DNA from: Cetorhinus maximus
Lineage: Eukaryota
Reading direction: 5' to 3'
NCBI RefSeq assembly: GCF_964194155.1
Contig: NC_135892.1
Coordinates: forward strand, 66,588,001-66,652,000
Length of the DNA: 64,000 nucleotides
Part shown: piece by piece, positions 7,403-64,000 of the stretch
How positions within the stretch are numbered: position 1 is the stretch's first letter
Layout: every line of letters begins with the position of its first letter
The notes under the pieces: model-generated
Database searches by the model: none
What the model saw: only the letters and a program-made list of their open reading frames with translations
What the model was told of the DNA's origin: nothing
Position numbers and translations under genes: made by a program

Positions 7403-9343
7403 GGATGGAATCATCCCAGATTTCCACTAGGTGTGGTAGCAGGTATGAAAAATGACATTTTACCCGCTGGCTCAATGGCGTATTTTCGCACTGTATCGCC
7501 CGCTTCCTGCCTCATTAATTATGCAGCCACAGTAAACATGCCACCTTGCTGGCGGGCGGCCTCCAAATCACCTGCCACACCGTTATCTCACTGTTTCCTC
7601 ACCCTGGGTGTCATATCTAAACTGCAGCCGCGCACACAGTTCTCAATACTTGCAGCCCAGGACTGATCCAGTGAAGACATGGCCCTGAAATCCAAGAAGG
7701 GTTCAGTGACATGTTACTAGAATGCCTTTCGGAGACCCGCCATGATCTCCTCCACTCCTGCAGGAGGTCCAACAATCTCACCACTCAGGCTCGGGAGGCA
7801 GTGGCAGTGGTTGCCAGTGCTGAAGCTGCACACAAGAGGTTGGCAATCCAGTGCAGAAAGAGGATGAATGATCTCATCCGTGCCGCCAGGGTAAGGCTAC
7901 CAGCTCATCACTCCAAACCCACACACTAACAAGGTCATCACACATTCACTGGCATCTCACTCATTGCCAGCTCAAGGCACATCACCATTCCACTCCAGTG
8001 GGGCTACCATTGACCAGAAACTGAACTGGACTGACCATATAAATACTGTGGCTACAAGAGCAGGTCAGCAGCTGGGAATCCTGTGGCGAGTAACTCATCA
8101 CCTGACTCCCAAAAGCCTATCCACCATCTACAAGGCACAAGTCAGGAGTGTGATGGAATGCTCCCTATTTGCCCAGATAAGTGCAGTTCCAACAACATAC
8201 AAGAAGCTTAACACCATCCAGGACAAAGCAGTCCACTTGATTGACACCCCATCAACAAACATTCACTCCCTCCACCACTGACTCACAGTAGCAGCAGTGT
8301 GTACCATCTACAAGATGCACTGCAGGAACTGACAAAACCTCCTTAGGCAGCACCTTCCAAACCCACGACCACTACCAGCTAGAAGGACATGGGCTGCAGA
8401 CACATGGAAATATCACCACCTGCAAGTTCCCCTCCAAGTCACTCACCATCCTGACTTGGAAATATATCGCCGTTCCTTCACTATCACTGGCTCAAAATCC
8501 TGGGACTCCCTCCATAACAACACTGTGGGTGTACCTACACCACATGAACTGCAGCAGTTCAAGAAGGCAGCTTACCACCACCTTCTCAAGGGCAATTGGC
8601 GATGGGCAATAAATGCTGGCCTAGCTAGCGACGCCCACATCCATGAATGAATTAAAAAAAAGAAAAAATCTCTCACACACATACCCTCATGTCTCCATCT
8701 GGCTCCCTCTCCTCTGGAGACTGCCTCCTCAGCCCTCACCATCTTGAGGCCACTTGCACAGATCAACACGCGCCCCAACACACACCTTGGGATACCTCCC
8801 TTCCCCAGTACAGCCCTCACCCTGCAGCCTCTTTCCTTGCTTGAGGCTCCTTCTCCCCCTTCCCCAAGCAAGACCTTGCCCTGCAGCCATTGAAAAGCCA
8901 CCCACCTATTGCTGATCTGGTAGGTAGAGACCTGCCCGTGAGCCCCCCTAAAAGTGGTGTGGCGCTGCCTGTGAAGCCTGGCTCTGATGACTGCGAGTGC
9001 TGACTGAAGCAAGGTAGGCAAACAAACCTCGAAGTCCTGAGCGAAGTGCAGCTCACCAGGTCATGTTGCTTATGTACACTTGTGAAACACGTAGGCATGC
9101 AATCACGCCGATGTGGCGGACGACCTAGTGTTGGGGGATGATTCTGGCGAGCAGGGCTTATAATGAGATGCTAAAATATCCTGACATGTGGTGGTGGGAA
9201 ACGCAGCCCACCATTGACAGGTGGAGTGGACGAACGCAAACTGGTTTCATGGCAGCGTAACACCGATTTTTGGCCTTCCCGCCATTTTGTCCATTCACAC
9301 CCACCTTGATGCCTGCCGCCAACAGGACTGGACGATTCCACCC
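7403..9343 (+). mobile_element. Non-autonomous Harbinger element with Myb/SANT exon 1
   Basis: TIRs ggatggaatcatcc and ggacgattccaccc, flanked by ATA/ACA. 7679-7890 encodes MALKSKK..FSDMLLECL..QCRKRMNDLIRAAR, followed by a GTAAGG donor at 7891. Confidence 0.8.
7998..8660 (+). mobile_element. CR1 LINE (family B) 3' fragment, nested in the Harbinger element
   Basis: IDQKLNWTDHINTVATRAGQQLGIL..STIYKAQVRSVME, followed by the tail gggcaataaatgctggcctagc..cccacatccatgaatgaa and an A-run. Confidence 0.9.
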
Positions 9344-14176: not shown

Positions 14177-14757
14177 TCACCGCTCATGTCCAAGTATCGT
14201 GTCCTGTACCCCTTGCGTGCCCCAAAATAGCTGTGCCTGGATTTCTAAGCCATGCTGTTTAGTCAGGTTGTTGTTTAATTCTGTTAAACCAGAGTTAAGT
14301 GAATGAGAATGATAACAAAAGTCAAGTGTACAAGACAAGATAAAGAGTAGATTAGGGCTGATTTGCTCCATATTTCTCAAGAGAGGAAGGAGAATTTGTT
14401 AATCGGTGGGTTCATTAAATTTGAAGTAGGCTGCAGTCTGATAGCTAGCCTCCAACTTGAGTTTCTGCCTAAACTGTCACCGCTCATGTGCAAGTATCAT
14501 ATCCTGTACCCCTTGTGTGCCCCAAAATGGCTGTGCCTGGATTTCTAAGCCATGCAGTTTTGCCAAGTTGCTGTTTAATTCTATTAAACCAGAGTTAAGT
14601 GAATGAGAATGATAAGAAAAGTTGCGAGTACAAGAAATGATAAAGAGCAGATTAGGGCTGATTTGCTCCTTGTTTCTCAAGAGAGGAAGGAGAATTTGTT
14701 AATTAGTGGGTTCATTAAATTTGAAGTAGGCTGTAGTCTGATAGCTAGCCTACAATT
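14177..14757. repeat. Tandem duplication, 300-bp period, two copies
   Basis: tcaccgctcatgt...gatagctagcct recurs at 14177 and 14477. The ORF track shows two near-identical peptides (MRNxEQISPNLLFI...GHER/AHER). Confidence 0.95.
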
Positions 14758-15034: not shown

Positions 15035-16745
15035 TTTTTTTAAATTCATTCACGGGATCACGGGATCACGGGATCATGGGATGTGGACTTCGCTGACTAG
15101 GCCAGCATTTATTGCCCATCCCGAGTTGCCCTTGAGAAGGTGCTGGTAAGCTGTCTTCTTGAATCGCTGCAGTCCATGTGGCGTTGGTACATCCACAGTG
15201 CTGTTAGAGATGGAGTTCCAGGATTTTGACCCAACGACAATGAGGAATAGCAAAATATTTCCAAGTCAGGGTGGTGTGTGACTTGGAGGGGAACTTGTCG
15301 GTGGTGGTGTACCCATGTGTCTGCTGCCCTTGTCCTTCTAGGTGGTAGAAGTTGCAGGTTTGGAAGGTGCTGCTTGGTGAGTTGCTGCAGTGTATCTTGT
15401 AGATGGTACACACTGCTGCCACCATGCAGTGGTGGTGGTTGGAGTGAACGTTTAAGATGGTGAATGGAGTGCCGATCAAGTGGGCTGCTTTGTCCTGGAT
15501 GGTGTCAAGCTTCTTGAGTGCTGTTGGAGCTGCATTCATCTAGGCAAGTGGAAGTATTCCATCACTTGTGCCTGGTTTTGGGGAGTCAGGGGCTGAGTTA
15601 CTTACCGCAGGATTCCCAGCTTCGGACCTGTGCATGTAGCCACAGTACTTATATGGCTAGTCCAGTTCAGTTTCTGGTTAATAGAAACCCCCAGAAACTT
15701 GATAGTGGGGGATTCAGCGAAGATAATGCCATTGAATATCAAGAGGCGATGGTTAGATTCTCTTTTGTTGTAGATGGTCATTGTCTGGCACTTGTGTGGC
15801 ACAAATGTTACTTGCCACTTATCAGCCCAAGCCTGAATGTTGTCCATGGGCAGAATTTTCGGGGGCAGATGCGGTGGGCGGGCCCAGGAGCAGTGGGGAA
15901 ACGGGCCACCACCCGCGATCAGCCCCTGACCGCTATTTCATGCTGGCTGGCCAATTAACAGCCAGCGTGAAACGCGCGTGAGAAGCTCAGCGGTGCCGGG
16001 GTGGGGGCGGGAAGAGGGCGAGCGCTGACATCAGCACGGGCACGGGTTGCGTGCAATGAAAGCTTCCTAAAGGCAGAGAGCTGCCTCAGGGAGCTGAAGA
16101 ATTTTAAAATCAAAAATAAAGATTTGGAAATTCTGAAAAACCATGTCCCCACATAGGAGTCACTCACATGAACACACCAATAATAAAAATTACGCCAAAA
16201 CATTTTTTTAGAATTAATGTCATAAACCTCATCCCGCCCGTGGATGAGATTTCCTCAAAAATCCAAAGGCCGCCTGGCCGATTTGCCCGCCCGCTAACCG
16301 TAAGGTTGGCTGGGCAGCGAAAAATCTCTTTTAATTAATGAATTAATGGCTTTAATAGGCCTCTTAATTATCGGTGGGCCCGCTGCTGACTCACATGTGC
16401 GCCCACCGACTGAAATATCACGCTCGCCCGACATCATCGTGAACTATTTTATGATTGATCTGGTAAAAATCTGCCCCAGGTCTTGCTGCATTTGTACATG
16501 GACTGCTTCAGTGTCTGAGGAGTCGCGAATGGTGCTGAACATTGTGCAATCATCAGTGAACATCCCCACTTCTGACCTTATGATGGAGGGAAGGTCACTG
16601 ATGAAACAGTTGAAGATGGTTGGGCCTAGGACACAACCCTGAGGAACTCCTGTAATGATGTCCTGGAACTGAGGTGATTGAACTCCAACAACCACAATGA
16701 TCTTCCTTTGTGCTTGGCTTGACTCCAACCAGTGGAGAGTTTTCT
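15035..16745 (-). mobile_element. CR1 LINE (family B) 3' part, interrupted by a MITE
   Basis: GVPQGCVLGPTIFNCFISDL..MFTDD, WADKWQVTF and LDTIQDKAAHLI, with the family B tail at about 15035-15125. Confidence 0.92.
15848..16476. mobile_element. Harbinger MITE (GGGCAGAATTTT family)
   Basis: gggcagaatttt ... aaaaatctgccc, with flanks CAT/CAG. The host CR1 sequence is continuous across the insertion. Confidence 0.9.
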
Positions 16746-22259: not shown

Positions 22260-22989
22260 TTTATTTATTTATTTGTTCATGGAATGTGGGTGTCACTGGC
22301 TAGGCCAGCAAATAAATGCTAGCCAACCCCTAATTGCCCTTGAGAAGGTGACAGTGACCAGCCTTCTTGAACCACTGCAGCCCTTGTAGTGTTAGGAAGG
22401 GAGTTCCAGGATTTTGACCCAGAAACAGTGAAGAAACGGAGGCATAGTTCCAAGTCAGGATGATGTGTGACTTGGAGGGGAACTTGCAGGTGGTGGTGGT
22501 GTTCCCATGTCTCTGCTGCCCTTGTCGTTTCAGGTGATAGAGGTTACAGGTTTGGAAGTTGCTGTTGAAGAAGCCTTGGTAAGTTGCTATAGTGATCTTG
22601 TCGATGGTACACAATGCTGCCACTGCGCATTGGCAGTGGAGGGAGTAAATGTTTAAAGTAGTGGATGGGGTGCTAATCTTGGATGGTGTCAAACTTATTA
22701 AAACCTGTTGCTGGATCTGCACTCATCCAAGCAAGTGAAGAGTATTCCATCACATTTCTGACCTGTGCCTTGTAGATGGTGGAGAGGCTATGGGGGATCA
22801 GGAGGTGAGTTATTTGCCGCAGGATTCCTACCCTCTGACCTGCTCTTGTAGCCACAGTAATTGCATGGCTGGTCCAGTTCAGTTTCTGGTCAATGGTAAC
22901 TCCCAGGATTTTGATATTGGGGGATTCAGCAATGGTAATGTCATTGAATATCAAGGGACGATGGTTAGATTCTCTCTTGTTGGAAATGG
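22260..22989 (-). mobile_element. CR1 LINE (family B) 3' fragment
   Basis: KILGVTIDQKLNWTSH..YKAQVRNVMEYS, plus the family B tail. Confidence 0.92.
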
Positions 22990-32117: not shown

Positions 32118-32780
32118 TTTTTTATCATTCATTTCCAGGATGTGGGCATCACTGGCTAGACCAACATTTATTGCCCATCCCTAGTTGACCTTGATAAGGT
32201 GGTGGTGAGCTGCCTTCTTGAACCGTTGCAGTCCATGTGGTGTAGGTACACCCACGGTGCTGTTAGGAAGGGAGTTCCAGGATTTTGACCCAGCCACAGT
32301 GAAGGATCAGTGATGTAGTTCCAAGTCAGGCTGACAAGTGACTTGGAAGGGAACTTCCAGGTGGTGGTGTTCCCATTTATCTACTGCCCTTTCCCTTCTA
32401 AATGGTAGTGGTCGTGGGTTTGGAAGGTGCTGTCGAAGGAGCCTTGGTGAATTCCTGTAGTGCATCTTGAAGATGGTGCACACTGCTGCTACTATGCATC
32501 AGTGATGGAAGGAGTGAATGTCTGTGGATGTGGTGTCAATCAAGCAGGCTGCTTTGTCCTGGATGGTGTCAAGATTCTTGAGTGTTGTGGGAGTTGCACT
32601 CATCCGGGCAAGTGGGGAGTTTTCCATCACACTCCTGACTTGTGCATTGTAGATGGTGGACAGGCTTTGGGGAGTCAGGAGGTGAGTTACTCATCGCACG
32701 ATTCCTAGTCTCTGACCTGCTCTTGTAGCCACAGTATTTACATGACGAGTCCAGTTCAGTTTCTGGTCAATGGTAACCCA
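32118..32780 (-). mobile_element. CR1 LINE (family B) 3' fragment
   Basis: Colinear with the copies at 15035 and 22260, and carries the same tail. Confidence 0.92.
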
Positions 32781-39240: not shown

Positions 39241-42095
39241 CTGTCACCTGGAGCAGTCCTGTAGACATCAAGTAGATTACTGTCTGGTGTGCTTTAAATA
39301 TGTGCCCAGAGCGAGGAAGCGTTGAGTTCATGGCGTGGTAGGCAGATCCAAGTCTGTCCACCAGTGATCCGGCATGTTTCCTATGAATGTATTATTAATG
39401 AGCTAGTTCACACTGGGAAGGGGAAAGATACAGGGCGAAAACCCATCATTGTGGCCGGCGGGTAAAACATAATTCTTCACACCCACTACCGCACTTAGTG
39501 CAAATCTGTGATGATTCCGCCCCATGTGTCTGCTACCCTTGTCCTTCTAGATGGTAGCAGCTGTGGGTTTGGAAGATGCTGTCTAAGGAGTCTTGGTGAG
39601 TTGCTGCAGTCCACCTTGTAGATGGTACACACTGCTGCCACTGTTCGTCGATGGTGGAGGGAGTGAGTGTTTCTGGAGGGGGTGCCAATCAATCGGACTG
39701 CTTTCTCCTGGATAGTGTCAAGCTCCTTGAGCGTTGTTGAAGGTGCATTTATCCAAGTAAGTGGAGAGCATTCCAGCACACTCCTGACCTGTTCTTGTAG
39801 ATGGTGAAAAGGTTTTGTGGAGTCAGGAAGTGAGTTACTTGCCACTGGATTCCTAGCCTCTGACCTGTTCTTGTAACAACATTAGTTATGTTGCTAGCCC
39901 AGTACAGTTTCTTGTCAATGGTAACCTCCAGAATGTTGATAGTGGGGGATTCAGCGAAGGTAATGCCATTGAATGTCGAGGCGATGGTTAGATTATCTCT
40001 TGTTGGAGATGGTCATTGCCTGGCACTTGTGTGATGCGAATCTTACTTCCCACTTGTCAGCCCAAGCCTGGATATTGTTCAAGTCTTGATGCATTCGGAC
40101 ATGGACTGCTTCAATATCAGACGAGTCATGAATGGTGCTGAACATTATGCAATCATCAGTGAACAGGCCCACTTCTGACCTTATGATGGAAGGAAGGTCA
40201 TTGATGAAGCAGCTGAAGATGGTTGGGCCTAGGACACTACCCTGTGGAACTCCTGCAGTGATGTCCTGGAACTGAGATGATTGACCTCCAACAACCACAA
40301 CCATCTTCCTTTGTACAAGGTATGACTCCAACCAGCGGAGAGTTTTCCCCCTGATTCCCATTGACTGCAGTTTTGCTAGGACTCCTTGATGCCATACTTG
40401 TTCAAATGCTGCCTTGATATCAAGGGCAGTCATGCTCACCTCACCTCTGGAGTTCAGCTCTTTTGTCCTTGTTTGAACCAAGGCTGTAATGATGTCAGGA
40501 GCTGAGTGACCTTGGCGGAACCTAAACTGAGCGTCAGTGAGCAGGTTATTGCTAAGCAAGTGCCACTTGACAGCAGTTCCATCACTTTACTGATGATCAA
40601 GAGTAGACTGATGGGATGGTAATTGGCCGGGTTGGATTTGTTCTGCTTTTTGTATGGAGGATATGCCTGGGCAATTTTCCACATTGCCGGGTAGATGCCA
40701 GTGTTGTAGCTGTATTGGAACAGCTTGGCTAGGGGCGTGGCAAGTTCTGGAGCACGAGTCTTCAGTGCAATTGCTGGAATGCTGTCAGGGCCCATAGACT
40801 TTGCAGTATCCAGTGCCTTCAGCCATTTCTTGAAATCACATGGATTTAATTGGCTGAAGACTGGCATTTGCGATGCTGGGGACCTCTAGAGGAGACCAAG
40901 ATCAATCATCGATTTGACACTTCTGGCTGAAGATTGTTGCATATGCTTCAGCCTTATCTTTTGCATTGATGTGCTGGGCTCCTCCATCATTGACGCTGAG
41001 GATATTTGTGGAGCCTCCTCCTCCAGTGGATTGTTTAATTGTCTCCCGCCATTCACGACTTGATGTGGTAGGACTGCAGAACATTAGATCTGATTCATTG
41101 GTTGTGGGATCGCTTAACTCTGTCTATTTCATGCTGGTTACACTGTTTGGCACACAAGTAGTCTTGAGTTGTAGCTTCATCAGGTTGACGCCTTATTTCT
41201 TGGTATGCCTGGTGCTGCTCCTGGCATGCCCTCTTGCACTCTTCATTGAACCAGGGTTGATCCCCTGGCTTGATGGTAATGGTAGAGTGAGGGATATGCC
41301 AGACCATGAGGTTATAGGTTGTGTTCAAGTACAATTCTGCTGCTGCTGATGGCCCACAGCGCCTCATGGTTGCCCAGTCTTGAGTTGCTAGATCTGTTTG
41401 AAATCTATTCCATTTAGCATAGTGGTAGTGCCACAGAACATGATGGAGGGTATCCTCAGTGTATAGATGGGATTTTGTCCTCACAAGGACTGTGCGATGG
41501 TCATTCCTACCGATACTGTCATGGACACATTCTACAGCAGGCAGTTTGGTGTGGATGAGATCATATACGTTTTTCCTTCTTGTTGGTTCCCTCACCACTT
41601 GCTGCAGATCTAGTCTAGCAGCAATGTTCTTCATGACTTGGCCAGCTCGGTCAGTAATGGTGCTACCAAGCCACTTTTGGTGATGGACATTGAAATCCCC
41701 CACTCAGAGTACATTCTGCACCCTTGCCACCCTCCGTGCTTCCTTCAGTTGGTGTTCAACATGGAGGAGCACTGATTCATCAGCTGAGGGGAGGGTTGGG
41801 GGATGGCGGCATGTTGCAATCAGCAGGAAGATCCCTTGCCAATGTTTGATCTGATGCTATGAGACTTCATGGGGTTTGGAGTCGATGTTGTGGACTCCCA
41901 GGGAAACTCCATCCCGAATGTATATCACGGCACCGCCACCTGTGCTGGCTCTATCCTGCCTGACATATATCCTGCTGCAGGTCTGAATTACAGAACAAAC
42001 AGCATCCTGGCACCATGCAACTCTGACAGGGGACAGTGGACGCAGATACAGGACGATCCTGGATAAGGGACGGTTGGTCACCCGGCCCTCAGTAA

Positions 42096-47025: not shown

Positions 47026-47329
47026 TAACTTTTCAATATCTGCCTTTAATCGCACATCTGCACATGCCTGAAGTTACTATGGTATTTGCGCATAAATACC
47101 AACAAATGCTCTCAGCCTTGCTGTTATCTTGACAAAAATGTTGCGCAAAGGTCGCTAAATGCGCTCATTGGCAATTAGCAGCAGTGTCTTAATGCTTAAC
47201 TGACTTCAGGAAAAGTCCAGTTGCAATCAATTCCAATTCAAAAATGACTGATGTTAACCCTGAGCAAGTGTATGTTTATCACTGCAACTAGAGCTCAGAA
47301 TTTATTCATTTTATTTATAGAAAGATAAT

Positions 47330-48010
47330 AGGCAGGATTTTCGGGTTGTCGGACTGGCATGGTGGGCGGGGCCCGGGAGCCGCCTGGAAATGGTCCACCG
47401 CCCACGGTCAGCCCCCAACCATGATTTCACACTGGCTGGACAAGTAACAGCCAGCCAGTATGAAAGGCGTGCTGAAATGCTCAGTGCTGCTGGGGTGGGG
47501 GCGGCGGGGGGGGGGGCGAGTGCTAACGTCTGCACAGGCACGGGGGGTGCGCAATGAAAGCTCCCTGAAGGCAGGGAGCTGAAAAATTTAAAAATCAGAA
47601 ATAAAGATTATAAAAGTCTGAAAAAAAATGTCCCCGCATAGGATTCATTCGCATTATGTAGATAATAAAAATTATGTCAAAACATTTTTTTTTAAAATTA
47701 ATGTCGGAAACCTCATCCCGCCCGTGGATGAGGCTTCCTCAAAAACGCAAAGGCCGCCTGACCAATTCTCCCACCAACCAACCGTAACATTGGACAGGCA
47801 GAGAAAAATCTCCGTTAATTAATGAACTAATGGCCATAAAAGGCCTCTTAACTGCTGGCCGGCACACTGCCAACTCTCGTGCCCACCCGCCGACCGAAAT
47901 ATCGCAAAGCGCATGATGATGTCAGGACGCTCACCCAACATCACCGCACGCTATTTCACGCTCGAGCATGTCGGGCGCACGTGCTCGCGCGCCGAGTGGA
48001 AAATTCTGCC
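47330..48010. mobile_element. Harbinger MITE (GGGCAGAATTTT family)
   Basis: aggcaggatttt ... aaaattctgcc with AAT flanks. The body is colinear with 15848-16476. Confidence 0.9.
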
Positions 48011-50790: not shown

Positions 50791-50836
50791 TTGTTTCTAT
50801 CAATAATATGAATGGCCCCAATTTTAACTTCGCCCT

Positions 50837-52125
50837 AGAATAAGAACAAAAATACCTGGAAAAACTCAGCAGGTCTGACAGCATCTGCGGAGAGGAATCC
50901 AGTTAACGTTTCGAGTCCAAATGACTTCACCAGAACTAACGAAAAATAGAAATGAGGTGAAATATAAACTGCTTTAAGCGGGGGTTGGGACAGGTAGAGC
51001 TGGATAGAGGGCCAGTGATAGGTGGAGATTGTCAAAAGATGTCATAGACAAAAGGACAAAGAGGTGTTGACGGTGGTGATATTAGCTAAGAAATGTGCTA
51101 ATGGTGACATTAAGGGTAGAAAGCAGGACGAGCAACAGACAGATAGCCCTAGTGGGGGTGGGGTGGGGGGGAATCAAAATAGGCTAAAAGGTAGAGATAA
51201 AACAATGGATGGAAATACATTTAAAAATAATGGAAATAGATGGGAAAAGAAAAATATATGTAAATTATTGGAAAAAGGGGGATCGGATAGTGGGTTGAGA
51301 TGGAGGAGAGAGTTCTTGATCTAAAGTTGTTAAACTCAATGTTAAGTCCAGAAGGTTGTAAAGTACTTAGTTGGAAGATGAGGTGCTGTTCCTCCAGTTT
51401 GCGTTGAGCTTCATTGGAACATTGCAGCAGGCCAAGGACGGACATGTGGGCATGAGAGCAGGGTGGTGTGTTGAAATGGCAAGTGACAGGGAGGTCTGCG
51501 TCATGCTTGCAGACAGACCGAAGGTGTTCCACAAAGCGGTCACCCAGTCTGCGTTTGGTCTCTCCAAAGTAGAGGAAACCGCAATGGGAGCAGCGAATGC
51601 ATTAAACTAAATTGAGGGAAGTGCAAGTGAAATGCTGCTTCACTTGAAAGGAGTGTTTGGGCCCTTGGACGGTGAGGATGGGGGAAGTAAAGGGACAGGT
51701 GTTGCAATTGCATGGGAAGGTGCCGTGGGAGGGGGTTGAGGTGTAGGGGGTGACGGAGGAGTGGACCAGGGTGTCCCGGGGGGAACAATCCCTATGAAAT
51801 GCCGCCAAGGGTGGTGAAGGGAAGTTGTGTTTGGTGGTGGCATCATGCTGGAGTTGGCGGAAATGGCGGAGGATGATCCTTTGAATGCCGGGGGCGGGTG
51901 GGGTGATAAGTGAGGACAAGGGGGACCCTATCACGGTTCTGGGAGGGAGAGGAAGGTGTGAGGGTGGATGCGCGGGAGATTGGCCAGGCATGGTTGAGGG
52001 CCCTGTCAACAACTGTGGGTGGAAAACCTCGGTTAAGGAAAAAGGAAGAGATATCAGAGGAACTGTTTTTGAAAGTGGCATCATCAGAACAGATGCAACG
52101 GAGGCAAAGGAACTGAGAGAATGGG
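50837..52125 (-). mobile_element. Penelope-like element, left arm (GIY-YIG region + 3' pLTR)
   Basis: Reverse complement of 52126-53417. Encodes EHLRSVCKHDADLPVTCHFN..EEQHLIFQLSTLQPSGLNIEF. Confidence 0.93.
50901..50937 (-). ncRNA. Minimal type I hammerhead ribozyme motif (mutated copy)
   Basis: The minus strand reads agtt-CTGGTGA-agtcatttggactc-GAAACGTT-aact. It has a core A>G change and a 2-nt deletion relative to the other arm. Confidence 0.7.
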
Positions 52126-53444
52126 CCTTTGCCTCCGTCGCATCTGTTCTGATGATGCCACTTTCAAAAACAGTTCCTCTGACATGTCTTCCTTCTTCCT
52201 TAACCAAGGTTTTCCACCCACGGTGGTTGACAGGGCCCTCAACCGTGTCCAGCCCATCTCGCGCGCATCCACCCTCACACCTTCCTCTCCTCCCCAGAAC
52301 CATGATAGGGTCCCCCTTGTCCTCACTTATCACCCCACCAGCCTCCGTATTCAAAGGATCATCCTCCGCCATTTCCGCCAACTCCAGCATGATGCCACCA
52401 CCAAACACATCTTCCGTTCACCACCCCTGGTGACGTTTCACAGGGATCGTTCCCTCCGGGACACCCTGGTCCACTCCTCCGTCACCCCCTACACCTCAAC
52501 ACCCTCCCACGGCACCTTCCCATGCAACCGCAGAATGTGCAACACCTGCCCCTTTACTTCCCCCCTCCTCACCGTCCAAGGACCCAAACACTCCTTTCAA
52601 GTGAAGCAGCATTTCACTTGCACTTCCCTCAATTTAGCCTACTGCATTCGCTGCTCCCAATGCAGTTTCCTCTACATTGGAGAGACCAAACGCAGACTGG
52701 GTGACCGCTTTGCGGAACACCTTCGGTCTGTCCGCAAGCATGATCCAGACCTCCTTGTCGCTTGCCATTTCAACACACCACCCTGCTCTCATGCCCACAT
52801 GCCCGTCCTTGGCCTGCTGCAATGTTCCAGTGAAGCTCAATGCAAACTGGAGGAACAGCACCTCATCTTCTGACTAGGCACTTTACAGCCTTCTGGACTG
52901 AATATTGAGTTCAACAACTTTAGATCATGAACTCTCTCCTCCATCCCCACCCACTTTCCAATCCCCCTTTTTACAATAATTGATATAGATTTTTCTTTTC
53001 CCATCTATTTCCATTATTTTTAAATGTATTTCCATCCATTGTTTTATCTCTACCTTTTAGCCTATTTTGATTCCCCCACCCCCCACCCCCACTAGGGCTA
53101 TCTGCACCTTGCTTGTCCTGTTTTCTACCCTTAATGTCCCCATTAGCATATTTCTTAGCTAATATCACCACTGTCAACACCTCTTTGTCCTTTTGTCTAT
53201 GACATCTTTTGGCTATCTCCGCCTATCACTGGCCCTCTATCCAGCTCTACCTGTCCCACCCCCCACCCCCCCTTAAACCAGCTTATATTTCACCTCTTTT
53301 CTATTTTTCCTTAGTTATGATGAAGAGTCATTTGGACTCGAAACGTTAACTGGATTCCTCTCCACAGTTGCTGTCAGACCTGCTGAGTTTTTCCAGGTAT
53401 TTTTGTTTTTGTTCTAGATTTCCAGCATCCGCAGTATTTTGCTG
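52126..53444 (+). mobile_element. Penelope-like element, right arm (RT thumb/linker, GIY-YIG endonuclease, 3' pLTR)
   Basis: ORF 52121-52873 reads LRRICSDD..RVPLVLTYHP..GTFPCNRRMCNTC..NLAYCIRCSQCSFLYIGETKRRLGDRFAEH. It is 5'-truncated and lacks the RT core. Confidence 0.95.
53313..53351 (+). ncRNA. Minimal type I hammerhead ribozyme motif (mutated copy)
   Basis: agtt-ATGATGA-a-gagtc-atttg-gactc-GAAACGTT-aact. Stem I is agtt/aact, stem II is gagtc/gactc, and the palindromic AACGTT forms stem III. The first core C is changed to A. Confidence 0.75.
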
Positions 53445-55026
53445 TTAACTTCCCCCTGCCTGGGTGGAGGCCGGGCTGGGTGTGGGGGGAGGTGGGGTAA
53501 TTAAAATGAGTGGGGGTCTAACTCACTACTTTCCATCTGACCAACCGATATTAAAATAGCAAGGGGCAAAGATGCCTTTCCCAAACCTGCCGCATTCCTC
53601 GTTATGCAGATTACTTTAAATGACATCATAATGACCTGTCCCACCATTTTATCTGGTGTGGGAAGCTGTAGTGGCTCCCCGGTCTTGTCAAATCTGCCAG
53701 AAGCTGGATCAAGGGCCTGAAGAGGCCCGGCAAAGAAAGTTTTGTAACTTCCTTTTCATTTCCTTGTGGGCAGGGGAGCAGGCATACTTCGCCCAACACC
53801 CTCTGTTCATTTTTGGAACTCCCTCTTCATCCACTTACCTGACTGTCGATGACCGGGTCTCCATGGAGCTGGACTCTTGCCACCCGAAGTCCCACTTGCA
53901 ACCACTAGCCAGGCAATTAAATCAGCTGGGCGTGGACAGGAGTCAGGGCCTGAACATGAAAATGATGCCCAGGAGGCCACCCCTTACGAGTTTGTTATTT
54001 GTGTAAGACCCTCGCATGGACGGAACTTGCCAGCCCCCTAGTAAAATCAGGGCATGCCTGTTAGGCCTTATGGTCAATTTAATCAGTCTATATTGGGGCC
54101 AATATTCTGTACATGTGTCCATCTGGTATATCACTTGTGTTAACAAAAAATTAACCACTCTAATATATGTAAGCATTTCAACCTTTACCAAAGTTTAATA
54201 TGACAGTCCCTTCAATAAAGTTCAAATTAAGCATAAAATTGCTAACTACAAAACCACTCCCAAATTACTGCTATTATATAGAATCCTGATCCAAGCAAAA
54301 CATTTACACAAAAATCCCATTCCAAGCTTAAAGTGTTTCCCTATTTAATGTACAGCAGCACACTTGTCTTTTACTGTCAAAAAGCCCTATACAGATGACA
54401 GCATGTTTAAGGAATCTAATCATGTTTGGATACAATAAAGTTAATTTGGCTTGAAGTAAATGAATGAATAGATGTCACACTGATAATGGTTTACAGACTG
54501 ACTATTTTCATCAAGAATTCATAGAAGCCCAGCAGTACATTTCTTGGCAAATCGGCTTTTGCTTATCAGAACCTAACTGTAATGAGTATTGGATAAAAGA
54601 GACTATGAGGCATTATGAAATCATCCAGCATAACTATAAAATATAACTTTTATTCTTATATGGGCAAGGTGATGACACATGAATGGCAAGTGCCAGGAAG
54701 TTCCTAGGAGCTGCTCTTATTCCGCTGCTGTAACCTCTAACAAAATTCCAAGGAAATTTCGAGCCAAAGCATTGAGTTAATTATGAAATAAAGCAGGGGC
54801 TGGCACTGAGCTGACTAGGAACAAGTTTACACAAGACAAGGGGTGTCTCATTCCCCTGACCTTTCTGCACAACATGAGGGCCATCATTACCTCTGAACAC
54901 AATGCTAAATGGAATGAAGGATCCACTCGGCCCTATTTAAAGAGGTCATTAGCTATTTAGAGATTAATTGCTGGATAATATCTCCTGACTGCAGATGAAA
55001 TTCTATGTGTTTTTGGAGTTCTCCTA

Positions 55027-56399
55027 GGGCAGGATTTTCAGCTTGGCATGCAGGCACATGCCCAACACGCACGAGTGTGGAATTGCACGCGATGACATCA
55101 GGTGATCATTCCAAAGTCATAGCGCAATTGCGCAATATTTCGGTTGCCTGGTGCGCGGCAGTGCGCCCGCCGACAATTAAGAGAGGCTGTTAAGCCCATT
55201 GAACAATTAATTAAAGTGAATTATTCCCTGCCTGTCCAACCTTACAGTTGGCGGGTGGGCGAACAGGCCAAGCGGCCTTTGCATTTTTTTGAAACCTCAT
55301 CCATGGGCGGTATAAGGTTTTGAACATTGATTAAAAAAAAATAAAAATTTTTGAACCTCATTTTTAACATGTCTCTGCTCATGTGACAGAGGGACATGTT
55401 TTCCTTGGGCAGAATTTTACCCTCAGCGGGGGTGGGCGGGGGCGGTCGGGAAGCCGACCGCTGCCCGCGATCAGCACCGCACCGCGATGTCACACTGGTG
55501 GGCCAATTAAGGCCAGCCCAGTGTGGAACGCTAGCAGCTGCGTTCAGCGCTGTCTGTGCGGGCGGGGGGAGGGGAGGGTGAGTGGGCCTAGGCCGAACTT
55601 CGCGGATGCGTGTGAGTGAGCGCTTCACTCTCCCTGAGGCACAGAGCTACCTCCGGGAGGTGAAGCGCTGTTTAAAAAAACTAATGAAGAAAATAAAAAT
55701 GTCATAAAACATGTCCCCTCATGTGACTCGGTCACATGAGCAGGGACATGTTTTTAATTGAAGTGTAAAATTTTTATTTGATTTTTATTTGCTTTAGGAA
55801 CCCTCACCCCACCCGTGGATGAGGTTTCCTAAAAAGTGCAAAGACTGCTCGACATTTTCGCCTGCCCGCCAACCGTAAGGTTGGACGGACAGTGTAAATT
55901 TGAATTTAATGACATTTTAATGGCTTTAATAGGCATTTTAACTGTCGGCGGGCGTGCTGCCAGCTTTGGTGCGCGCCCGCTGAACAAAATATCGCGAAAT
56001 TACACGATGACATCGGGATGCTCGCCTGACATCATCGCACGTCATTTTACATTCAGCCAGGTCGGGCGCGCGCCCATCTGCCGGGCTCAATATTCTGCCC
56101 CGTATTTTTGAAATCTTTATTTTTAATGTTAAAAATCTTCAGCTCCCTGAGGCAGCTCTGTGCCTTCAGGGAGCTTTCACTGAGCACACCTGCCGCACGT
56201 GCACATTTCAGCACTCGCGCTCCTCCCACCCCCACCCAGGCAGCGCTGAGGTTATCAGCGCACGTTTCACGCTGGCTGGCTGTTAATTGGCCAGCCAATG
56301 TGAAATCGCAGTCGGGACCCGACTGCAAGCGGCAGACCATTGTGCGGCCGCCTCAGGACCCACCCGCCGTGCCTTCCCAATGAGGAAACAATCCTCCCC
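55027..56399. mobile_element. Harbinger MITE (outer), TSD CTA
   Basis: gggcaggatttt ... aatcctcccc, with CTA at 55024-55026 and 56400-56402. It is in opposite orientation to 15848-16476. Confidence 0.85.
55407..56100. mobile_element. Harbinger MITE (inner), nested in a MITE of the same family
   Basis: gggcagaatttt ... aatattctgccc, with flanks CTT/CGT. Confidence 0.9.
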
Positions 56400-60746: not shown

Positions 60747-63577
60747 TCATTTACGGGTGCTACATCTAGGTGCCTCTCCATCGCTCGGAGTAGCTTGTGA
60801 GACTGCCTGCTGACTCTGCTGTCCTGCTGGCCTCGAAGACCTTGATGGGCGTCCTCTGGTCCATGGAGCCTGTGATGGCCCCGCCTGGGAGGGAGTGGCC
60901 AGTTCCAGAACTGGCACCTCCCCAGTTGTCACAACCTCAACAGAAGAAACGTTGACTGGCAGAGAGGCGGAGGAGCTGCTGCCCTCATCCGGAGCGCCCT
61001 GAGAGGAGCTCGCAGCGACGACAGGCAGCTGCTGCGCCGATGTGAGGTCACACTGGACCTCCCTGCTCACCGCAGATGGATGTGCACCGAGCGCCGACAC
61101 TTGGTGCCCACTACATCTCCCACATTGGGAATGACCACCTGTGGCCATTACCGCTGTGAGAGCTTGCAGGTCAGAGCATAACCCAATCAGAAGATTCTCC
61201 ATCTGATCAAACCCCCTCTCCATGAGAGTCGCCAGTCTCTCAGTGGAGGAAGCGTGAAGCTCTGCCCTGAGGTTCATGCCTTCACTTGCACTCTGGCTGG
61301 ACTCCTCCATCGCAGAGACCAACTGAAGCATACCCTCATGCAACCCTGCCAGATGCAAACGCGATTCCTGCCGCTTGTCCTGCAGCTGCTGCATTGGGGA
61401 CAACTCCAGAGGCACGTCATCAGTACCGGACTCAGCATGTGCCTGGTCCCCTGCAGCCCTCCGGCTGCTGGCGCCATTGGCACTCTCTGTCCGTGCCATC
61501 TCCTCCAGCGATTGTGAAGTGCCCTCTCCACTGTGACCCGGGACACTAGCCGACATTAAATTCCCCACCGAGGTGTGTGTGTCTGCGCTGGTGCCTGGCT
61601 GGCTGAAATGATGTGCCGCAAGTTGCACGTCTTGGGCCTCAGGTGTGGAGGGGGGGCTCCGGTGTCGTTGGGGGCGGCCATGCGGTGGTGATGCTGAAAT
61701 TAACAACAAAGACAGTGGATCAGTTAGCGTTCAGTCAGTAACACGTTTCATCCCTTTGCCCCCCCCAGCCTCATAAGTCGCTCACCCTTCAAGACCCTAA
61801 GGAGACGAACATTGGTGAGGTGGAAAAGAGTCAAGAGGAGGTCCAAACATTAGACATGCATACAGACAGGCTGGTCAGATGGCTTCAGGAATGCCACATG
61901 GCATGTTATGTGCCATTGGAGTGGGGAGAGTGCAGAGGTACCTGACCTGGATGCATTGTGGCCTGGATAGTTGCGGGGCTGAGCAAACATCGCAAACAGT
62001 AGCGACATTTGCCGTGGATCACAGGAGATTGACAGGTCACATTATTGACCTTCATTCAGTAAGGAGGGGCATAGAACGGGTGGACAGAAGGCAACATTTC
62101 CCCTTGGCGCAAGGATGAGTAACGTGGTGGCATTTATTTAAGTTGAGTGCCATGAGGCTGACAGGTGAGGTGCTGAGGACCTTTTGGGCAGAGTAATGTG
62201 GGACGTACTGGCTGAAAGGGAGGTGGAGGTACAAACCCTCCTAAGATGCAAAACATCTTTGGCTGTGCAGCAGCGATGCCATGGCATGTTAGGCCATGGG
62301 GATAGTGGTCACAAATAGGATAAGGCAGCTTTGGAAGGTGCTGGAGACGCGCATCCTCAAGGGGACGAGGGACCTTTGTGTATGACACACACGTCAGAGT
62401 GTCTCAGTCTGTGAATGAGCAGTGTTGTTGCATTAATAATTGCAGCAACCATCAGTGGTTTGGATGGTGGGCAAACAGAGTGGATGGGACTGTGGACCTC
62501 AAATACCTGGCCGCTGGCCCCAGCCTCACCGCCACCTGCCGCCCTGGCCGCCTGCCTCCTCCCCAGCTCCATGGCCCGCTCCTCGAAGGTGGGTGAGGCG
62601 CTGGAGCAAGGCATGCCCACCACCAGTCCTCTGGCGCTCCCTGAGATTGTGCTCAGTTTTTGCCTGCAGAACAGAGAAGAGCATTTATTGGGGCTGATCG
62701 CTCATGTAGTCTGCACACACACGCCGCACCCCAACCACTGTGGCCCATCTGAGGCCTCCAGCGGCTCCTGTCCACACTACTGGTGATCAGTCCCCAGAAG
62801 ATAGTACGGCTGGTCCCAACCCCTTCCCCCAATGGACACCTTGGACACATTCAGCGTCCATCACTTGGAATAACAAACGGGTCTTAGCACCCATGGCAAG
62901 GAGAAGCAACTAGGTGCGATGCCGAGGCCAACAGATGGCTCTTGGCCACGACACCTTGAGGCTCCCCTTCCACCATCTCATCACCATCAATAAGACATGT
63001 GTTGGAGTTGTGAATATGTGTCTAGCTGCCTTCCCTGCAGGTTGCCCCCAGACTTCTCAAATGCGACAAACGCCAACATATGCTGCGGGGAGAACCCGTC
63101 TTCTCCTCAACCACTAAGGCTGATGTAAACATGGTCACTACCTGTTTGCCCACCCAGCATGCGCCAAATGCCCAATGCAGTAACGACACTAAGACGTGGG
63201 GAGGGGGAGGGGCTCAAAGGCTAAGGCTACCTGCTGGGTTAAATGGCCAAGGCTAACATGGTACTCACCCTTCCAGAGCGCAGCAAATCATTGAATCATT
63301 TGCGGCACTGGGTGCCTGTGCGCCGCACATCATCATGGGCGTTTACTGCGTCACCCACCTCCTCCCACGCCTGCCTGGTGACATGGGAAGCCCTCCTCCT
63401 CCCATCCTCCGGATACAAAACATCCTGACGGCTGGACACCTCTTGGAGGAGGACAGCAAGGCAGGCATCAGAGAAGCGAGGGGCACACTGGACCCCTGCT
63501 GGCCTCTCCTGCAGCCTGCCCCCCTCCTCCTGCTCCTGTCCTCTGAGAGCAGCCCCTCTCTCTCCCCGAGTGGCCAT
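60747..63577 (-). pseudogene. Harbinger Myb/SANT-like DNA-binding protein, exons 63577-63269, 62663-about 62507 and about 61693-60747
   Basis: APRFSDACLAVLLQEV..RQAWEEVGDAVNA..QCRK*FNDLLRSGR|GTGAGT; cag|AKTEHNLRERQRTGGG; the last exon is open for more than 300 codons. There is one stop and at least one frameshift, and the exon 2/3 phase is not fully reconciled. Confidence 0.9.
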
Positions 63578-64000
63578 GGTGCACTGCCTCAAGCAGGCTG
63601 CCTGGCCACTCGTTATACAGACTGCCGGCTCCCCATTGGAACTGGCGGTCTGAGCACGCCCGCCTCCGCGACTATTTTCCTGTTCTGCACGGGAGTCGCT
63701 AACCCGCTGGGCGGGCCTTAATTGGCCCACCCGTGGAAAATAGCGGCGCGGCCCGTTTCGGCGGTGGCAATCGGCTGCCCGCCCGCCACCGAGTCGGTCG
63801 GGCCCGCCCGCCCATCAAGGGCAAAATTCTGCCCATAATGCCGAAATCTAACCCAATAGCTTCTTTCAAATCATTACAAAATAATATGGTTATGGATTCT
63901 TCTCTGGTAAAGCAGGAGTTAAAAGCTTCAGAGTTCCACTTGGGGCGGGATGGGGGAGCGGCTGTTGTGAGGCTAAGAGACCCAGAAGAATGGGTTTCCT

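What the first reader, a model, noticed from the sequence alone, without database searches (positions are those of the whole stretch)
50837..53444. 2.6-kb head-to-head Penelope palindrome inserted as a single event
Seen: two arms of about 1.28 kb are inverted around a 15-nt spacer (52111-52125). They differ at 13 of the innermost 150 bp. The unit is bracketed by a 13-bp direct repeat TTAACTTC(G/C)CCCT (50824-50836 and 53445-53457). Established: Penelope-like elements often form inverted structures. Inference: fold-back or template-switch synthesis in one insertion, so arm divergence dates it. Read-through transcription would give a long dsRNA hairpin, a potential siRNA or ADAR substrate.
Basis: partly seen in the sequence, partly recalled or inferred. 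Interest (0 to 1): 0.7.

Follow-up and report, generated by a model that had tools for sequence, protein, structure and literature searches.

The report
Ordinary head-to-head Penelope insertion
The 2.6-kb mirror repeat is real and is two broken stumps of a very common jumping gene, likely laid down together in one old insertion; this layout is already described for such elements, about a quarter of sampled copies in this genome share it, and no effect on the host is shown.

Summary
In detail: arms 50835-52110 and 52126-53417 differ at 90 of 1275 sites, inside a 12/13 direct repeat. Both arms are 5'-truncated, dead Neptune-type Penelope-like copies. The 15-nt 'spacer' is left-arm element sequence, and only the right arm carries the 27-nt tail.

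One insertion is well supported: a target duplication of typical size, a gap-free junction, and sister arms in a 64-copy tree (97/85). Flank-element junctions also occur in other organisms (left in two, right in one), so it is old. No empty site was found.

The layout is published (PMC8557442, PMC3846280), and this scan has noted it before elsewhere in this genome. In 60 fresh loci, 16 are head-to-head, and 14 of 15 complete units pair one tailed with one tail-less arm.

Unequal arm lengths across the family favour priming from both target strands over simple fold-back. Fold-back is still possible for this near-symmetric copy. Arm divergence only places it in the family's main burst. The dsRNA, siRNA and ADAR idea is untested and not specific to this locus. 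Low interest.

The parts
50824..50836 (+). Left copy of the 13-bp target-site duplication; its last 2 nt also fit the left arm's end
   Evidence: junction present in organisms B and C
50835..52125 (-). Left arm: 5'-truncated, tail-less Penelope-like copy (RT thumb end, linker, GIY-YIG endonuclease, 3' region); frameshift, stop, and a 9-nt deletion in the Cys linker
50900..50938 (-). Minimal hammerhead-like motif of the left arm; core changed at position 6 plus a 2-nt loss, likely inactive
   Evidence: read by eye (core numbering recalled); not detected by Rfam
52111..52125 (-). The 15-nt 'spacer': element sequence belonging to the left arm; blunt head-to-head junction at 52125/52126
   Evidence: compared with family copies
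52126..53417 (+). Right arm: 5'-truncated Penelope-like copy
52127..52930 (+). ORF remnant: RT thumb end, CX4CX2C linker, GIY-YIG-type endonuclease with CCHH residues; premature stop at 52871-52873
   Evidence: Pfam GIY-YIG E 0.0031, below the curated cut-off
53312..53352 (+). Minimal hammerhead-like motif of the right arm; core position 3 changed, likely inactive
   Evidence: read by eye and folded; not detected by Rfam
53418..53444 (+). One-sided PLE tail (27 nt up to the TSD), equal to sequence at the element's own 5' end just before and into the ORF
   Evidence: present with the right flank in organism C
53445..53457 (+). Right copy of the target-site duplication

Best explanation
This is a pair of dead, 5'-truncated Neptune-type Penelope-like copies joined head to head inside one target-site duplication, likely made in a single old insertion in which both cut target strands likely primed reverse transcription of the same element RNA. 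Shown: anatomy, TSD, one-sided tail, blunt junction, sister arms, junctions shared with other organisms, and the family-wide one-tailed/one-tail-less rule. Inferred steps: (1) the GIY-YIG endonuclease nicks both strands about 11-13 bp apart; (2) one 3' end primes at the outer RT start site (giving the tail) and the other at the inner site about 30-35 nt upstream (no tail); (3) the two cDNAs stop 15 nt apart, perhaps at a broken RNA 5' end; (4) repair joins them head to head. Since then it has most likely decayed neutrally. My odds: one insertion about 0.9; double priming rather than fold-back about 0.6.
For: TSD: score 11 against a maximum of 9 in 44 control pairings; 14 of 15 fresh units have 13-19-bp TSDs, null 5 of 210. 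Same template: sisters at 97/85 in a 64-row tree, as are two other long units; 14 shared non-majority alleles, one absent from 62 other copies; partner ranks 1st-2nd of 80; other units differ at only 28 of 145 and 49 of 262 family-polymorphic cells, against 72.8 and 119 expected for random copies. Two start sites: solo copies end tailed (21) or tail-less (23), yet 14 of 15 complete units pair one of each (binomial p 0.0005); loose ends pile up at 53413 and at 53443-53451 in 4 of 4 public runs from three organisms. Against simple fold-back: the tail-less arm is over 50 nt longer in 14 of 34 units. PMC11167929 (abstract, results, part of methods read): a purified PLE protein cuts and extends both strands and starts at two sites that bracket the tail.
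Against: By raw identity the arms are not closest relatives (29th of 41; 35th of 63). This unit's arms differ at 5 of 17 family-polymorphic columns (7.8 expected at random), at 6 of 16 in an earlier set, five of them within 52879-53214 where other units rarely differ. The tree bootstrap had not settled. Arm-to-arm gene conversion could also make sisters. Near-symmetric units are in excess (10 of 34 within 50 nt, 2.1 expected), which fold-back predicts, and this unit is one of them. In vitro, the two strands did not differ in start site (PMC11167929). No empty site was found.
Confidence: 0.6

Rival explanations
1. One insertion by fold-back: the tail-primed cDNA snapped back, copied itself and jumped to the other target strand before the tail; 15 nt were later lost from the palindrome's tip. 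This is the first reader's mechanism and is close to the self-priming idea in PMC3846280.
For: The arm 5' ends lie 15 nt apart; near-symmetric units are 10 of 34 against 2.1 expected; the arms are sisters. Loss of bases at palindrome centres is recalled from general knowledge.
Against: The loop reads as left-arm sequence, so without a later deletion the tail-less arm would be the first cDNA and could not supply the tail. Offsets in near-symmetric units fall 5 each way. The tail-less end is also used by 23 of 44 solo copies, so it looks like a real start site. Fold-back fails for the 14 of 34 units whose tail-less arm is much longer.
Confidence: 0.28
2. One event, but with two different element RNAs (for example held by a protein dimer), or one arm later partly converted by another family copy.
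For: The arms carry alternative common alleles at 52879, 52988, 53106, 53139 and 53214, where other units differ in 13 of 107 cells over the same 8 columns (counted; window chosen after the fact). A few units (L121, L147) are as discordant as random pairs. A dimer was predicted in PMC11167929.
Against: Shared rare alleles (52481, 52953, 53004, 53353) interleave with the discordant sites, so there is no clean tract. The partner is still the top or second match of 80.
Confidence: 0.08
3. Two independent insertions, the second landing at the 5' end of the first.
For: The family is very abundant (13,056 first-look candidates, not a copy number), and raw arm identity is no higher than between dispersed copies.
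Against: One TSD brackets both arms, with no duplication at the centre; the junction has no gap; the arms are sisters; and 16 of 60 fresh loci are head-to-head with a strict tail rule.
Confidence: 0.03
4. Assembly artefact (fold-back chimera).
For: The central junction was not checked in reads.
Against: The arms are 7% apart with indels. Outer junctions occur in independent public contigs: right in organisms A and C, left in B and C.
Confidence: 0.01

Closest known systems
EN+ Penelope-like insertion unit with an inverted 5'-truncated copy and one-sided 30-40-bp tail (Craig et al. 2021, PMC8557442; passages read)
   Same: Inverted 5'-truncated copy directly at the 5' end, tail at one end only, C-terminal GIY-YIG, CX2-5CxxC linker of Neptune/Nematis, hammerhead-like motif in the terminal repeat.
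   Different: The arms here are long (1.3 kb) and nearly equal; that paper ascribes the tail to endonuclease resolution of an intermediate.
Adineta vaga Penelope units such as Pen2a_Av (Arkhipova et al. 2013, PMC3846280; passages and Discussion read)
   Same: Head-to-head inverted repeats inside an 8-10-bp TSD, optional 31-bp tail, short offset at the inverted junction.
   Different: Low-copy rotifer elements with about 200-bp inverted pLTRs; the authors propose self-priming. Here the family is high-copy, TSDs are mostly 12-19 bp, and arms are often very unequal.
PAc, Poseidon element of Anolis, in vitro (Frangieh et al. 2024, PMC11167929; parts 1-2 of 4 read)
   Same: Two RT start sites bracketing the tail; both target strands cut and extended.
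   Different: Poseidon clade, not Neptune; in the parts read the start sites are not tied to inverted units, and no strand difference in start site was seen.
LINE-1 twin priming (recalled, not from a call)
   Same: Both target strands prime on one RNA, giving an inverted, 5'-truncated insert within one TSD.
   Different: In L1 the second primer lands far upstream, so the two pieces do not overlap. Here both start within about 35 nt of each other, so the 3' end is copied twice and a palindrome results.

Membership tests
EN+ Penelope-like elements | Single ORF with RT followed by a C-terminal GIY-YIG endonuclease | tested here: met
   The window arm holds the thumb end and endonuclease (Pfam E 0.003, below cut-off). 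A full-length family copy, L036, has a 713-aa frame with the DKG and RT motifs (RVT_1 E 0.0005, below cut-off) upstream of the same endonuclease.
EN+ Penelope-like elements | CCHH motif in and after the GIY-YIG core | tested here: met
   Two Cys between the GIY- and YIG-like halves and two downstream His, read by eye.
EN+ Penelope-like elements | pLTR organisation: element 5' end repeats its 3' end; tail equals 5' sequence | tested here: met
   L036, L049 and L161 start with a copy of the 3' end; the tail maps just behind it.
EN+ Penelope-like elements | Hammerhead ribozyme motif in the pLTR | tested here: inconclusive
   A minimal core, stem II and GAAAC are seen by eye in family copies and, mutated, in both arms. 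Rfam gave no hammerhead hit. Activity is not testable here.
EN+ Penelope-like elements | RT groups with PLE/telomerase RTs in a phylogeny | not tested
   No reference RT set was fetched.
Neptune clade | CX2-5CxxC linker between RT and EN (shared with Nematis) | tested here: met
   CX4CX2C in the right arm; definition from PMC8557442.
Neptune clade | Placement with Neptune rather than Nematis by RT tree | not tested
   No tree against references. A passage of 10.64898/2026.07.22.740005 lists Neptune and Poseidon in vertebrates, which favours Neptune.
PLE inverted insertion unit | Inverted 5'-truncated copy abutting the 5' end, tail on one end, TSD around the whole | tested here: met
Foldback/MITE DNA transposon | Symmetric terminal inverted repeats copied as a unit, with the same centre in many copies | tested here: not met
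   Ends are asymmetric; no other unit among 140 extended loci shares this junction position.

The most novel reading that the evidence does not exclude
Head-to-head Penelope units record a double reverse transcription of one RNA, in which the two cut target strands each take a different one of the two RT start sites. That would explain the one-sided tail, the inverted arm and the unequal arm lengths together, and would link the 2024 in vitro start sites to genomic structure. I did not find this stated in searches, though most subscription papers are outside that library.
Probability: 0.45. Interest if true: 0.45.

Novelty: already known. Interest (0 to 1): 0.22.

Why it matters
This locus matters little: it is one of likely thousands of such dead units. 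The useful part is family-wide. How Penelope-like elements finish integrating is still open, and this high-copy family gives testable rules: one tailed plus one tail-less arm, a TSD around the pair, mostly one template, unequal lengths. Any model must meet them. Such units are also shared-insertion markers between species and give rough internal clocks.

Tried and rejected
Empty site: no paralogous target in the genome (searches found only the locus itself; one search found no hit among fetched loci). Organisms B and C hold filled junctions, so no empty orthologue was seen. Organism B's right flank was not covered in the one run laid (about half of it read), and organism A's left flank was not covered in run X4; neither is evidence.

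Rfam gave 7 sub-threshold hairpin matches at the centre, all artefacts of the palindrome, and no hammerhead. PDB sequence search: 0 hits.

A directional allele difference between tailed and tail-less arms at one column (7 of 7) did not replicate in fresh units (2 vs 2) and was dropped. Target-element microhomology at the ends: the script stopped part-way, overlaps were small and noisy, and there was no null, so nothing is claimed. No A-to-G excess in the arms' DNA changes (3 of 49 and 3 of 67); this does not test RNA editing.

No host gene was recognised in the window (19 ORFs of 150 aa or more; 8 scanned gave only repeat-type domains); short exons are not excluded.

Rows dropped: L146 (duplicate of L138); L158 and L171 (arms not adjacent) from the unit counts; 30 solo-arm loci with complex or cut structure from the solo TSD tally (20 of 41 scored 9 or more). 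The 20 older units were curated by hand from loci chosen partly with tail-bearing queries, so the unbiased tail test is only. Loci are top hits of searches, not a random sample. Supplements were not read; those of PMC11167929 (Fig. S2) may bear on whether the start sites were already tied to inverted units.

Full report
Observation. A self-alignment of the window gives one long inverted repeat, 50835-53417. The arms differ at 90 of 1275 aligned sites with four indels, evenly spread, 13 of them in the innermost 150 bp. The direct repeat at 50824-50836 and 53445-53457 matches at 12 of 13. Two things were missed. The 15-nt spacer is element sequence on the minus strand, so the left arm simply reaches 15 nt further 5' and the junction is blunt. 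And the right arm carries 27 nt beyond the left arm's end.

Identity. The right arm translates to an RT thumb end, a CX4CX2C linker and a GIY-YIG-type endonuclease with CCHH residues and one premature stop (Pfam E 0.003, below cut-off). The left arm has a frameshift, a stop and a 9-nt deletion in the linker. A full-length family copy (L036) has a 713-aa frame with DKG and RT motifs and starts with a repeat of its own 3' end. By the definitions in PMC8557442 (passages) this is an EN+ Penelope-like element of Neptune/Nematis type; no tree against reference RTs was made. Both arms hold a minimal hammerhead-like motif (the kind described in PMC4209133, passages) with a changed core base, so both are likely dead (core numbering recalled). 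The genome is 4.0 Gb, and the search's first look gave 13,056 candidates. An earlier scan note calls the host a shark; I did not check this.

One event? The TSD scores 11, against at most 9 in 44 control pairings. By raw identity the arms are not each other's best match: 29th of 41 non-self hits one way, 2nd of 42 the other. This is expected if all copies date from one burst and the left arm aged faster. By shared changes they do belong together: 14 shared non-majority alleles, one absent from 62 other copies; sisters at 97/85 in a 64-row tree whose bootstrap had not settled, as are the arms of two other long units; partner ranked 1st-2nd of 80. Against this, they carry alternative common alleles at 5 of 17 polymorphic columns (7.8 expected at random), clustered in 52879-53214 but interleaved with shared rare alleles. 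Recurrent mutation, patchy gene conversion or a second template could each explain that. Arm-to-arm conversion could also inflate sisterhood. Overall a single insertion is about 0.9 likely.

How common. Among 80 extended loci, an automated pass found 15 adjacent head-to-head pairs besides this one, and hand curation gave 20. As a fresh test I took 60 loci found with tail-free queries. Sixteen are head-to-head. Of 15 with both ends, 14 pair one tailed with one tail-less arm and all 14 have a 13-19-bp TSD (null 5 of 210). Solo copies are 21 tailed and 23 tail-less (p 0.0005). Arms within units agree at family-polymorphic columns far more than random copies do (28 of 145 and 49 of 262 discordant, against 72.8 and 119 expected). 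Loose ends in four public runs from three organisms pile up at the same two end points. This unit is therefore typical. The layout is published: an inverted 5'-truncated copy, a one-sided 30-40-bp tail and a TSD (PMC8557442, PMC3846280). This scan has reported it several times elsewhere in this genome.

Mechanism. In 34 other units the tail-less arm is over 50 nt longer in 14, the tailed arm longer in 10, and 10 are near-symmetric (2.1 expected; offsets 5 each way). Fold-back of a tail-primed cDNA cannot make sequence beyond its own end, and fold-back of a tail-less cDNA cannot make the tail. The simplest common model is that both nicked target strands prime on the RNA, one at each of two start sites, and the cDNAs are joined head to head. 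PMC11167929 (parts 1-2 read) shows that a PLE protein cuts and extends both strands and starts at two sites bracketing the tail, though with no strand difference in vitro. The excess of near-symmetric units could mean both cDNAs ran off the same broken RNA end, or true fold-back followed by loss of a few bases at the tip. This unit is in that class, so fold-back stays a live rival (about 0.3). All mechanistic steps are inferred.

Age. Arm distance is K2P 0.074 (0.062 without CpG), about the same as between dispersed copies (end branches median 0.041), so the insertion falls in the family's main burst. The left junction is present in organisms B and C, whose contigs run 32-33 nt into the arm with 31 of 952 and 34 of 970 flank differences. 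The tail plus right flank is present in organism C, with 35 differences in 511. The insertion thus predates those splits. Weighting arm divergence (A/T sites 4.3%, G/C sites 7.6%) by flank composition, I estimate by hand that it is about 0.9-1.6 times as old as the split. The arms aged unequally (53 vs 35 derived changes), so the clock is rough. No empty site was found.

dsRNA. A read-through transcript would pair well: 18 perfect runs of 21 bp or more, the longest 89. But no transcription was tested, no host gene was recognised in the window, and about a quarter of sampled copies offer the same. It is a generic possibility, not a finding.

Verdict. Real, correctly described, a single old insertion of a known layout. 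Interest 0.22. The only step beyond the literature I could search is the family-wide one-tailed/one-tail-less rule and the double-priming reading it suggests.

Noticed in passing
window 50816-50829 and 54042-54055: The target may lie in the 5' end of a decayed element of about 620 bp with short terminal inverted repeats (10 of 13 match by eye); no paralogue was found.
   Followed up: partly
window 53909-54291: Only 4 differences in a 379-nt piece against organism C, lower than the 3.5-6.8% of neighbouring flanks; possibly a conserved non-coding stretch.
   Followed up: no
window 53410/53452 (run X8): One contig joins these places on opposite strands; probably another locus with a tail-to-tail arrangement; unexplained.
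   Followed up: no
window 55089-56038; related pieces at 15837-16422 and 47328-48010: A family of 600-900-bp fold-back, MITE-like repeats, 67-76% alike.
   Followed up: no
window 8001-8661, 15074-15777, 22277-22989, 32118-32779, 39521-40586: Five copies of another repeat; the last adjoins an RT frame (Pfam RVT_1 E 5e-29), likely a CR1-type LINE (type recalled).
   Followed up: partly
window 63296-63814 (-): Myb/SANT-like frame (Pfam E 1e-5), as in Harbinger-type transposons (recalled).
   Followed up: partly
window 14177-14755: Tandem duplication of about 300 bp, 91% identical.
   Followed up: no
L036:3009-6502: Full-length copy whose short inverted arm begins at the 5' edge of the hammerhead-like motif, as an earlier scan note reported for other copies.
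   Followed up: partly
L040, L119, L156, L163, L165, L252: Copies with an internal inverted piece that does not reach the 3' end, some resembling LINE-1 5' inversions.
   Followed up: no
L279:849-5234: Two matching head-to-head units in tandem, likely a local duplication.
   Followed up: no
L037:6662-7324 and 8339-9001: A 100% identical direct repeat of at least 663 bp: recent duplication or assembly repeat.
   Followed up: no
32 units: Tail-less arms carry slightly more derived changes than tailed arms (614 vs 535); likely due to how focal arms were picked.
   Followed up: partly
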